Shown one piece after another: positions 48,318 through 49,112 of a stretch of DNA of 64,000 bases. The notes beneath the pieces are model-generated. The model was given only the letters and a program-made list of their open reading frames with translations, was not told where the DNA came from and did no database searches. Source of the stretch: a virus; IMG/VR virus record IMGVR_UViG_3300042335_000796, positions 27,524 through 91,523 of that record; one strand, given 5' to 3'. Made by a program: the position numbers and the translations under genes. Each line of letters opens with the position of its first letter. The stretch's first letter is position 1.

Positions 48318-49112
48318 ATTGGCCGTGTATGGTCATCAAATAAACCCCGAAAGGGGTATAAAGTGGAGTCAATGTGTTATGATTCTGCGTCTTGGGCAAC
48401 CGAGGTCGAGTACACAAGTGGGATATCATTTTATCTTAAGTATCGAGGGCAACGCTTTAGAGAAAAAGATAAAATGACTTGGCACCGTGGATGTCAAGTT
48501 GAGGTGGGAACATCAATAAGAATAACCCATAGAAATATTGCAAAAAGTATAATTATCCAATTATATTATTGCGTTTTTCAATATGATAGGAAACTTAAAG
48601 CCGTGAGGTAAGATAGAGAACGAGTGGTGTCGCTACTATCCTTGTTAATAACTTACCAAAGTTTTAACATGAAGTAATCTTGAAATATGATGATTGGGAA
48701 ATCATAAGAAGGTGTTAAGTATTTTGTAGTTCAAAAGATTACAAATCTTAAGGTAGACCGCATCTTCTACAATCCACAAACACAAGACTTATTTTTTATT
48801 TGGAAAAAAATACTATAAGCAAAAGTGTCTATCAGGTTAAAATGAAAGGTGCTTACATAGTCGCTGGCTGTCAGTGGCACGTAAAGACCGCAAGTCTGAG
48901 CGTATTTTCATGAAAAACCTCTAATCTCGCAAGGATTAATTGGGGAGGCATCCTCGAAGAGAGTTGAGTATTGATAGAGTAATTTTAACCTCAAGGAGTG
49001 ATTCACCTAAATAATCAGCACTGGAAATTACCGTCCAAAAGATGGTGGATAAGAAGAGAACCAATAATGCTTCAAAAGATTTCCACAAAAACTTGTAATC
49101 TCAGAGTTTTTT
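48318..49112 (+). ncRNA. Large (~800 nt) highly structured noncoding RNA, GOLLD-like candidate
   Basis: No credible ORF and raised GC. More than 15 stems, including ACCCC-GAAA-GGGGT, CTTGG-GCAA-CCGAG, a 12-bp TCATTTTATCTT/AAGATAAAATGA helix and long-range GGTTAAAAT/ATTTTAACC. Confidence 0.7.

What the first reader, a model, noticed from the sequence alone, without database searches (positions are those of the whole stretch)
48318..49112. ~800 nt ornate noncoding RNA (GOLLD-like candidate)
Seen: dense stems with GNRA-type loops (CCCC-GAAA-GGGG at 48345-48356, CTTGG-GCAA-CCGAG, GCC-GTGA-GGT), a 12-bp helix 48426-48437/48466-48477, nested AGAAGGTG/CATCTTCT, long-range CTATCA/TGATAG and GGTTAAAAT/ATTTTAACC, ACCGTC-CAAAA-GATGGT, and a terminal AAAAACT/AGTTTTT stem. 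Many G-U pairs are consistent with + strand RNA. Established: GOLLD (~800 nt) and ROOL (~600 nt) are giant phage-associated RNAs of unknown function, often near tRNAs. Here a CRISPR cassette is the upstream neighbour instead. The family assignment is my inference from size and context.
Basis: partly seen in the sequence, partly recalled or inferred. Interest (0 to 1): 0.75.

Follow-up and report, generated by a model that had tools for sequence, protein, structure and literature searches.

The report
GOLLD RNA behind a phage CRISPR array
The stretch is a genuine, full-length GOLLD RNA, a known giant phage RNA that builds a 14-copy cage, in a lake jumbo phage; the RNA is ordinary for its family, but it sits behind a small CRISPR guide cassette instead of the usual tRNA genes.

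Summary
Window 48319-49112 (+) is a complete GOLLD RNA. Rfam RF02032 matches 48707-49107 at 311.7 bits (gathering score 150, E 2.5e-88), covering all 416 model positions. The upstream 390 nt are the GOLLD 5' domain. They are homologous over their full length to about 50 IMG/VR phage contigs and to the huge phage LR745206. They are also of the same class as env-38, the RNA whose D7 14-mer nanocage was solved (PDB 9MEE).

Covariation for this domain is strong. Over 131 pairs, 96.7% of cells are paired, against 36-47% in slid controls, and 81 pairs show double changes.

CTATCA/TGATAG does not: covariation pairs that segment with 48752-48758.

The context is unusual. Relatives sit inside large tRNA arrays with a tmRNA. 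This 91.5-kb jumbo-phage fragment (probable Bacteroidota host, lake water) has no tRNA.

A promoter plus boxA-like motif lies about 55 nt upstream of GOLLD in relatives. Here it lies 430 nt upstream, with a tracr-like scaffold and a three-spacer CRISPR array in between. Co-transcription is inferred, not shown.

Verdict: a new member of a known family in a new context.

The parts
47711..47761 (+). Promoter repeat P1 (CACTTGAC ... -7 box TAACTTTG at 47738-47745, Bacteroidota type TAnnTTTG)
   Evidence: Direct repeat D2 and motif positions. Function is inferred from the consensus and from similar tandem boxes upstream of GOLLD in L053, L034 and L021.
47822..47872 (+). Promoter repeat P2 (-7 box TAACTTTG at 47849-47856)
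   Evidence: These two are the only TAnnTTTG boxes on the + strand between 47300 and the end of GOLLD.
47888..47898 (+). boxA-like leader motif GTTCTTTGAAA
   Evidence: The same motif occurs 49 times in sense and 0 times in antisense in 224 kb of GOLLD flanks. It lies 52-57 nt upstream of GOLLD in most relatives and 430 nt upstream here. The antitermination role is an inference; the test in a Flavobacterium genome was inconclusive.
47888..48068 (+). tracr/omega-like structured scaffold ending in a degenerate repeat (48033-48068)
   Evidence: Homologous to two scaffolds in L057 that follow a Cas12f/V-U3-type gene (121-126 identical positions; hairpin CCAATG/CATTGG versus ATCATG/CATGAT is a compensatory change).
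48069..48266 (+). Mini-CRISPR array: three 30-nt spacers (48069-48098, 48135-48164, 48201-48230) and three 36-nt repeats (48099-48134, 48165-48200, 48231-48266)
   Evidence: The repeat is 33/36 identical to the L057 repeat and 29/36 identical to the Flavobacterium columnare/covae repeat that lies next to Cas13b. Lake contigs carry other spacers at these positions.
48267..48318 (+). A-rich 52-nt linker between the last repeat and GOLLD, with no promoter box
   Evidence: Contigs from three lake runs bridge the last repeat into GOLLD (records 5, 22 and 27).
48319..48705 (+). GOLLD 5' domain (18 helices; not covered by the Rfam model)
   Evidence: Alignment A2. 131 pairs, 96.7% of cells paired against 36-47% when the partner is slid, covariation score 0.451 against 0.07-0.09. 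Window helices are listed. Same class as the env-38 5' domain.
48707..49107 (+). GOLLD conserved 3' domain (Rfam RF02032, model positions 1-416)
   Evidence: 311.7 bits, E 2.5e-88.
48769..48826 (+). Variable A/U-rich linker (the disordered internal linker of the cage in env-38). It holds no tRNA and is about 20 nt shorter than in relatives
   Evidence: Unaligned, variable columns 545-622 of A2. It is closed by the covarying helix 48752-48758 / 48827-48833. The role is taken from PMC12286853.
48947..48950 (+). Loop GGCA, the candidate self-complementary kissing loop (bridge B8, L21a of env-38)
   Evidence: Across A2 this loop is GGCA (20), GCGA (14) or GAUA (2), so the inner dinucleotide is always a palindrome. 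The paper reports a GC/CG switch at env-38 nt 656-657; the loop falls at nt 658-661 in the 833-nt relative L031. The mapping is approximate.
49091..49112 (+). 3'-terminal hairpin (ACU / AGU around the loop UGUAAUCUCAG) and U run
   Evidence: Last helix of the Rfam model; covaries in A2. The terminator scan does not call it a terminator.

Best explanation
Window 48319-49112 (+) encodes a complete, intact GOLLD RNA of about 794 nt. It belongs to a low-GC (27%) freshwater jumbo phage whose host is probably a Bacteroidota, likely a Flavobacterium-like bacterium.

Shown here:
- Family membership, the boundaries, the two-domain secondary structure and its evolutionary conservation.
- The 5' domain is of the same class as env-38, the GOLLD whose structure was solved.

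Inferred by homology: the RNA folds into a 5' cap domain and a 3' ring domain, and 14 copies assemble, without protein, into the D7 nanocage seen for env-38. The A/U-rich linker 48769-48826 would face the interior.

Inferred from anatomy: the RNA is made as the last unit of a protein-free precursor of about 1.25 kb. That precursor starts at the tandem Bacteroidota-type promoters (47738, 47849) and passes a boxA-like motif (47888). It then runs through a tracr-like scaffold and a three-spacer CRISPR array before reaching GOLLD. GOLLD would be released when the guide RNAs are processed. In relatives, the tRNA-processing enzymes would release it from tRNA arrays in the same way.

The biological role of the cage is unsolved for the whole family. 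My working guess is that it acts during lytic growth by sequestering or scaffolding part of the host or phage RNA and translation machinery. This instance shows that tRNA genes next to GOLLD are not required. The shared feature is membership of a strongly expressed, processed, noncoding RNA operon.
For: - Family: Rfam GOLLD 311.7 bits against a gathering score of 150, model positions 1-416. It is the only family found.
- Relatives: 49 IMG/VR loci and LR745206 carry full-length homologs of 815-853 nt. All eight that were tested are GOLLD by Rfam, at 219-302 bits.
- Covariation.
- Link to the solved structure: the env-38 construct shares the 5' end and the 5'-domain motifs. The cage is described in PMC12286853. 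The palindromic kissing-loop dinucleotide is retained.
- Phage context: IMG/VR record, CheckV completeness 31% for 91.5 kb; baseplate J, endolysins, RNR and DnaB genes.
- Host clues: TAnnTTTG boxes, SprB repeats, and a repeat like that of Flavobacterium arrays.
- Leader: the conserved motif is at about -55 in relatives and at -430 here, and no promoter box lies between the array and GOLLD.
- Junction: contigs from three independent lake runs confirm the array-GOLLD junction.
Against: - No transcript data show co-transcription. The one RNA library holds only a 233-nt exact contig inside the 5' domain, at depth 3.2, which could be DNA carry-over.
- The boxA reading rests on resemblance. The motif is not enriched in a Flavobacterium genome, and only 1 of its 8 16S genes has it upstream.
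- This RNA is only 61-66% identical to any relative.
- It lacks two peripheral hairpin extensions and about 20 nt of linker, so 14-mer assembly is not guaranteed.
- The function of the cage is unknown for every GOLLD.
Confidence: 0.85

Rival explanations
1. This is a GOLLD RNA that is transcribed on its own. The CRISPR cassette upstream is a separate unit that happened to insert nearby, with no co-transcription and no functional link.
For: GOLLD and the cassette occur apart elsewhere: L057 has the cassette without GOLLD, and about 50 phages have GOLLD without the cassette. A 52-nt A-rich gap separates the two here. One low-depth lake contig (X7) appears to join 48047 to 48246, skipping the array.
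Against: No TAnnTTTG box lies between the array and GOLLD. The leader motif that sits about 55 nt upstream of GOLLD in relatives here sits upstream of the scaffold, so the cassette lies inside what is GOLLD's leader elsewhere. The strand is the same and no terminator lies between them on the + strand.
Confidence: 0.3
2. GOLLD and the guide cassette are functionally coupled. The cage carries, stores or releases small RNAs tethered to it in the precursor: crRNAs here, tRNAs in other phages.
For: In relatives, tRNAs abut GOLLD within 3 nt (tRNA-Gly at +3 in L026, L019 and L016). Published work notes tRNAs embedded in the GOLLD linker and proposes encapsulation (PMC12286853, PMC12990946). Here another class of processed small RNA takes the flanking position.
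Against: This is a single instance. The window's linker holds no cargo. Adjacency in an RNA-gene island is explained more simply by shared promoters and processing.
Confidence: 0.1
3. The stretch is a decaying GOLLD relic with no function.
For: It has 7 non-canonical pairs among about 125 in the 5' domain, two shortened hairpins and a short linker.
Against: It has the highest Rfam score of the nine GOLLDs scored, at 311.7 bits. All 18 helices of the 5' domain are kept. Other members have more mismatches: L034 has 16 and L002 has 13. The same short forms occur in L031, L053, L017, L034 and L002. The sequence is stable in lake metagenomes from 2020 to 2024.
Confidence: 0.03
4. It is another RNA class (group I or II intron remnant, ROOL, OLE, RNase P) or a protein-coding stretch (ORF 48363-48611, 82 aa).
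For: An 82-aa GTG ORF exists in the region.
Against: No other Rfam family is found at E up to 5. Substitutions follow base-pairing rather than codon structure, and indels are not in multiples of three.
Confidence: 0.01

Closest known systems
GOLLD RNA (Rfam RF02032), specifically the 'lake' class represented by env-38 (JCVI_SCAF_1096627009515/1239-410; cryo-EM structure PDB 9MEE, Kretsch et al. 2025, PMC12286853)
   Same: - Full match to the conserved 3' domain.
- Homologous 5' domain with the same 5' end and the same motifs (the GAAA hairpin near the 5' end, and CAAUAAGAAUAAC.CAUAGA).
- Two-domain layout with an internal variable linker.
- Palindromic kissing-loop dinucleotide.
- Phage origin in a freshwater or surface-water metagenome.
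   Different: - 794 nt against 833 nt.
- The hairpin at 48389-48406 and the hairpin capped by GUGA at 48600-48609 are the short forms.
- The linker is about 20 nt shorter.
- It is only 61-66% identical to any relative found.
- No tRNA-Met, tmRNA or tRNA array lies nearby; a CRISPR guide cassette lies in the leader instead.
GOLLD in tRNA arrays of Mycobacterium and Lactobacillales prophages, and in Acinetobacter phages (Ab15, Bestia, AM24)
   Same: The same Rfam family. L003 from phage Ab15 scores 218.9 bits.
   Different: Only the 3' half gives blastn matches to the Acinetobacter phage records. nhmmer aligns phage Ab15 (L003) across the whole query, but weakly (107 bits, 705 nt). Those RNAs lie between tRNAs.
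ROOL RNA (8-mer nanocage) and OLE RNA (dimer)
   Same: Large, ornate, protein-free, self-assembling bacterial or phage RNAs. ROOL is also phage-borne and lies near tRNAs.
   Different: Their sequences and folds are unrelated. Neither gives an Rfam match here.
Phage-borne mini-CRISPR arrays, and type V-F (Cas12f / V-U3) systems with tracrRNA (relevant to the upstream neighbour only)
   Same: A scaffold plus 36-nt repeats with 30-nt spacers. In L057 the same module follows a 443-aa Cas12f/V-U3 gene (PADLOC 279.7 bits).
   Different: No cas gene is present in the 91.5 kb held. The repeat sequence resembles Flavobacterium type VI-B repeats. The module sits in the leader of a GOLLD gene.

Membership tests
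GOLLD (RF02032) | Covariance-model score at or above the curated gathering score (150 bits) over the conserved 3' domain | tested here: met
   311.7 bits, E 2.5e-88, model positions 1-416 of 416, not truncated.
GOLLD (RF02032) | About 800 nt in total, with a separate and less conserved 5' domain upstream of the conserved 3' domain | tested here: met
   794 nt. The 5' domain at 48319-48705 is homologous to the 5' domains of 49 loci and LR745206 and to env-38.
GOLLD (RF02032) | Secondary structure supported by covariation | tested here: met
   132 of 203 pairs show compensatory changes. For the 5' domain, 81 of 131 pairs do, with a covariation score of 0.451 against 0.07-0.09 in slid controls, and 0 of 500 shuffles reach the observed values.
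GOLLD (RF02032) | Encoded by a phage or prophage | tested here: met
   IMG/VR virus record, with baseplate, endolysin, RNR and DnaB genes.
GOLLD (RF02032) | Location next to or within tRNA arrays (typical of the family, not strictly defining) | tested here: not met
   No tRNA in the 64-kb window or in the other 27.5 kb of the record. Most relatives have 10-25 tRNAs and a tmRNA within 3 kb.
GOLLD (RF02032) | Self-complementary kissing loop that bridges copies (B8, L21a) | tested here: met
   Loop GGCA at 48947-48950. The same column reads GGCA, GCGA or GAUA across 36 sequences. The mapping to env-38 numbering is approximate.
GOLLD (RF02032) | Protein-free assembly into a D7 14-mer nanocage | not testable with these tools
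   Known for env-38 only (PMC12286853). Inferred here by homology.
GOLLD (RF02032) | Expression that rises during lytic growth | tested here: inconclusive
   One exact 233-nt contig (48357-48589, depth 3.2) in a freshwater metatranscriptome. High-depth contigs in the same library match only the conserved motif at 90-95% and so come from other GOLLDs.
ROOL / OLE / group I-II introns / RNase P / tmRNA | Rfam covariance-model match | tested here: not met
   None at gathering threshold in the whole window, and none at E up to 5 in 47600-49300 apart from noise.

The most novel reading that the evidence does not exclude
GOLLD cages may be carriers or storage devices for small RNAs that are tethered to them in a common precursor. 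In most phages the cargo would be tRNAs. In this phage it would be CRISPR guide RNAs, made from a cas-less, protein-free operon (promoters, boxA, tracr-like scaffold, array, GOLLD). On this reading, the swap of a tRNA array for a guide array at the same position is a natural experiment that points to the function of the whole family.
Probability: 0.08. Interest if true: 0.85.

Novelty: new member of a known kind. Interest (0 to 1): 0.45.

Why it matters
GOLLD is one of the largest natural RNA-only assemblies known, and its function is still unsolved. The only functional clue so far is its habit of sitting in tRNA arrays.

- This member is firmly in the same structural class as the solved env-38 cage, yet it has no tRNA neighbours. 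It lies in one apparent transcription unit with a CRISPR guide cassette. That weakens the idea that GOLLD acts specifically on neighbouring tRNAs. It shifts attention to what the contexts share: strong promoters, a boxA-like leader motif and endonucleolytic processing of a noncoding precursor.
- The set of 36 distinct full-length sequences with a conserved 5' domain gives covariation data for the half of GOLLD that the Rfam model leaves out.
- The conserved leader motif at about -55 gives a testable handle on how GOLLD is expressed.

Tried and rejected
- **Spacer targets.** Exact 30-nt searches for two spacers in IMG/VR found nothing. blastn of 48069-48230 against 50,697 phage records gave only E = 6 noise. 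There are no self-matches in the 91.5-kb record or in any fetched locus.
- **Other copies of the cassette.** No IMG/VR contig carries the repeat pattern or the scaffold motif. No relative of the L057 Cas12f-type protein was found in IMG/VR.
- **cas genes in the record.** No Cas13b and no Cas12f-type gene.
- **CRISPR-like spaced repeats upstream of GOLLD in L053, L034 and L021**. These turned out to be tandem promoters, not arrays.
- **RNA evidence for the array or for bridging transcripts.** The metatranscriptome run has no cover over 47300-48300. This proves nothing either way.
- **The boxA test in Flavobacterium covae.** The motif is not enriched, and only one copy lies upstream of a 16S gene. 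I kept it as an inference only.
- **The intermolecular L20-J13/15 kissing loop (B7).** I looked for it by covariation in A2 and found no clear signal in 36 sequences.
- **Neighbouring proteins** (ORFs at 49127, 49458, 47347, 46964, 46444, 50366 and others). None has a homolog near GOLLD in any relative, so no conserved protein partner emerges.
- **Cas13b-only reading of the array.** I considered this first, from the likeness of the repeats. I set it aside once L057 showed the same scaffold and array behind a Cas12f/V-U3 gene. The likeness to type VI-B repeats remains unexplained.

Full report
**What is there**

Window 48318-49112 was read and the whole 64-kb window was scanned against Rfam 15. 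The only match at gathering threshold is GOLLD (RF02032) at 48707-49107 on the + strand. It scores 311.7 bits against a cut-off of 150, with E 2.5e-88, covers model positions 1-416 of 416 and is not truncated. A permissive scan of 47600-49300 (E up to 5) adds only noise. The Rfam model describes only the conserved 3' half of GOLLD, so the upstream 390 nt had to be tested separately.

**The 5' half and the boundaries**

- blastn against phage records matched the 635-kb uncultured phage LR745206 over nearly the whole stretch, and Acinetobacter phages over the 3' half only.
- The pairwise alignment with LR745206 starts at about 48321 and already shows compensatory changes, for example CCCC-GAAA-GGGG against CCTC-GAAA-GAGG.
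- A 19-base motif from the 5' half (CAATAAGAATAACNCATAGA) recovered 49 IMG/VR loci.
- nhmmer shows that every one of these loci holds a homolog. The 44 uncut copies align over the whole stretch and are 812-853 nt long. The other five are cut off by a contig end. The matches begin at the position equivalent to 48318-48321 and, in the uncut copies, end at 49107-49112.
- All eight relatives put through Rfam are GOLLD at 219-302 bits, so the window's copy scores highest.

**Structure**

On the alignment of 36 distinct sequences (A2), RNAalifold predicts 203 pairs, 132 of them with compensatory double changes.

For the 5' domain alone there are 131 pairs in 18 helices:

| Measure | Observed | Partner slid by 1-3 columns |
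|---|---|---|
| Cells forming a standard pair | 96.7% | 36-47% |
| Pairs with double changes | 81 | 29-39 |
| Covariation score | 0.451 | 0.07-0.09 |

None of 500 shuffles reaches any observed measure. The single sequence folds at -194.9 kcal/mol, z = -5.2.

TGATA belongs to the Rfam helix UUUCA/UGAUA. The segment GUCUAUC (48827-48833) covaries with GGUAGAC (48752-48758), a 7-bp helix that closes the variable linker.

**Relation to the solved structure**

- Kretsch et al. (PMC12286853) showed that GOLLD env-38 (833 nt) forms a protein-free D7 14-mer cage of 380 Å. The 5' domains (nt 1-420) form the caps, the 3' domains (nt 421-833) form the rings, and a disordered linker (nt 497-538) lies inside.
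- Their Supplementary Table 4 prints the env-38 construct. It starts with the same 5' sequence as the A2 consensus and the window, and it contains the very motif I used as a search pattern.
- The window's RNA therefore belongs to the same 5'-domain class as the solved cage, and the construct's first base corresponds to 48319.
- The loop the paper reports as switching between GC and CG (bridge B8, nt 656-657) fits A2 columns 747-750. These read GGCA in 20 sequences, GCGA in 14 and GAUA in 2, so the inner dinucleotide is always self-complementary. The window has GGCA at 48947-48950.
- Differences from relatives are peripheral: two hairpins are in their short form (as in L031, L053, L017, L034 and L002) and the linker is about 20 nt shorter.
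- The window's RNA is 61-66% identical to every relative, so it is a separate lineage that keeps the fold.

**Genome and host**

The window is part of a 91.5-kb IMG/VR virus record that CheckV rates 31% complete, which suggests a genome near 300 kb. GC is 27%. It encodes baseplate J, two lysozyme-type enzymes, RNR and a DnaB helicase.

Clues to a Bacteroidota host are:
- SprB repeats in a fibre gene.
- TAnnTTTG promoter boxes.
- A CRISPR repeat that is 29/36 identical to the Flavobacterium columnare/covae repeat next to Cas13b.

The DNA recurs in lake-water metagenomes from 2020 to 2024.

**Context: the unusual part**

- In the relatives, GOLLD sits inside large same-strand tRNA arrays. A tmRNA and tRNA-Met lie 250-500 nt upstream and up to 25 tRNAs lie downstream, sometimes starting 3 nt after GOLLD.
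- This record has no tRNA at all in 91.5 kb. L034/L021 also lack recognised tRNAs in the flanks that are held.
- Directly upstream here are two 51-bp promoter repeats (47711, 47822), a structured scaffold of about 180 nt (47888-48068), and a CRISPR array of three 36-nt repeats with three 30-nt spacers, counting the one after the scaffold's degenerate repeat.
- A metagenome contig (L057) carries the same scaffold and array twice, behind a 443-aa protein that matches Cas12f/V-U3 models at 271-280 bits. No cas gene is present in the record itself.

**Evidence that the cassette lies inside GOLLD's own leader**

- The motif GTTCTTT[GA]A[ACT]A occurs 49 times in sense and never in antisense in 224 kb of GOLLD flanks.
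- In most relatives one copy lies 52-57 nt upstream of the GOLLD 5' end, often 23-55 nt after a TAnnTTTG box.
- In the window, the only copy in 64 kb on the + strand lies 39 nt after the second promoter box and 430 nt upstream of GOLLD, at the first base of the scaffold.
- No promoter box and no + strand terminator lies between there and GOLLD.
- Contigs from three lake runs bridge the last repeat into GOLLD, so the junction is not an assembly artefact. One of them carries a different spacer at 48201-48230, and loose ends show further spacers.
- Co-transcription is therefore a reasonable inference, but I could not show it. The only RNA library holds a single exact 233-nt contig inside the 5' domain and nothing over the array.
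- The boxA (antitermination) reading of the motif rests on its likeness to the E. coli rrn boxA, which I recall from memory. It also rests on one copy 254 nt upstream of the first 16S gene of an rrn cluster in F. covae, where the motif is otherwise not enriched.

**How it most likely works**

- Shown: it is a GOLLD, intact, of the env-38 class.
- Inferred by homology: two-domain folding and 14-mer cage assembly.
- Inferred from anatomy: synthesis as the 3' unit of a protein-free precursor and release by processing of the neighbouring small RNAs.
- Unknown: what the cage does. Published ideas are encapsulation of tRNAs, ribosomes or other cargo. This instance argues that adjacent tRNAs are dispensable. 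It is compatible with, but does not demonstrate, a link to other processed small RNAs.

**Novelty**

The RNA is a new, divergent member of a known family. The full-text library holds no paper that links GOLLD with a CRISPR array, and no second instance of this arrangement turned up in IMG/VR. The context is new, but it is a single case.

My reading of those parts was reached independently before that look-up (note) and agrees with them.

Noticed in passing
L057:4700-7010 (read on the - strand): A metagenome contig with the same 27% GC carries a 443-aa Cas12f/V-U3-type gene followed by two scaffold-plus-array units. The 36-nt repeats are 33/36 identical to the window's and about 30/36 identical to Flavobacterium type VI-B (Cas13b) repeats. 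A type V effector paired with type VI-B-like repeats is unexplained.
   Followed up: partly
window 48135-48230 in lake runs X1, X4 and X7: Spacer content differs between samples. An X4 contig has a different spacer at 48201-48230. Loose ends show other spacers, one of them repetitive (CCCCGAAGACAG units). A low-depth X7 contig joins 48047 to 48246 with 15 other letters, as if the array were absent.
   Followed up: partly
L010, L013, L046, L052 and most other relatives, 250-600 nt upstream of GOLLD: A phage-encoded tmRNA followed by tRNA-Met precedes GOLLD in most relatives, and arrays of 10-25 tRNAs follow it, all on one strand.
   Followed up: partly
L034:5545-5650 (- strand), the identical stretch of L021, and L002 just downstream of GOLLD: A tRNA-like element of about 95 nt (GGTCGGTTCGTCTAGTGGC ... 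GTTCGATTCCTCTACCGAC) with a long internal insert or variable arm. Neither ARAGORN nor the Rfam tRNA model calls it.
   Followed up: no
L003 (Acinetobacter phage Ab15, PP763259.1 about 26000-26700): The GOLLD region of this deposited phage genome is annotated with small 'hypothetical protein' CDSs (for example 26428-26580), and no ncRNA is annotated. This is probably a misannotation. The related records Bestia, AM24 and YMC13/03/R2096 have no feature there.
   Followed up: no
window 49127-49517: A 103-aa ORF with no family match starts 15 nt after GOLLD and is followed by a strong intrinsic terminator (49488-49517). It could be the last gene of the same transcription unit. No homolog lies near GOLLD in any relative.
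   Followed up: partly
window 48033-48068: The last 12 nt of the scaffold (GGTTGTTACAAC) are the exact reverse complement of the first 12 nt of the repeat. The corresponding stretch in L057 is instead a direct copy of the repeat's last 14 nt. The repeat is partly palindromic, so the two readings are hard to separate.
   Followed up: partly
window 15809-17926: A fibre-like protein with SprB repeats and a weak match to the Por secretion tail domain, modules typical of Bacteroidota surface adhesins.
   Followed up: no
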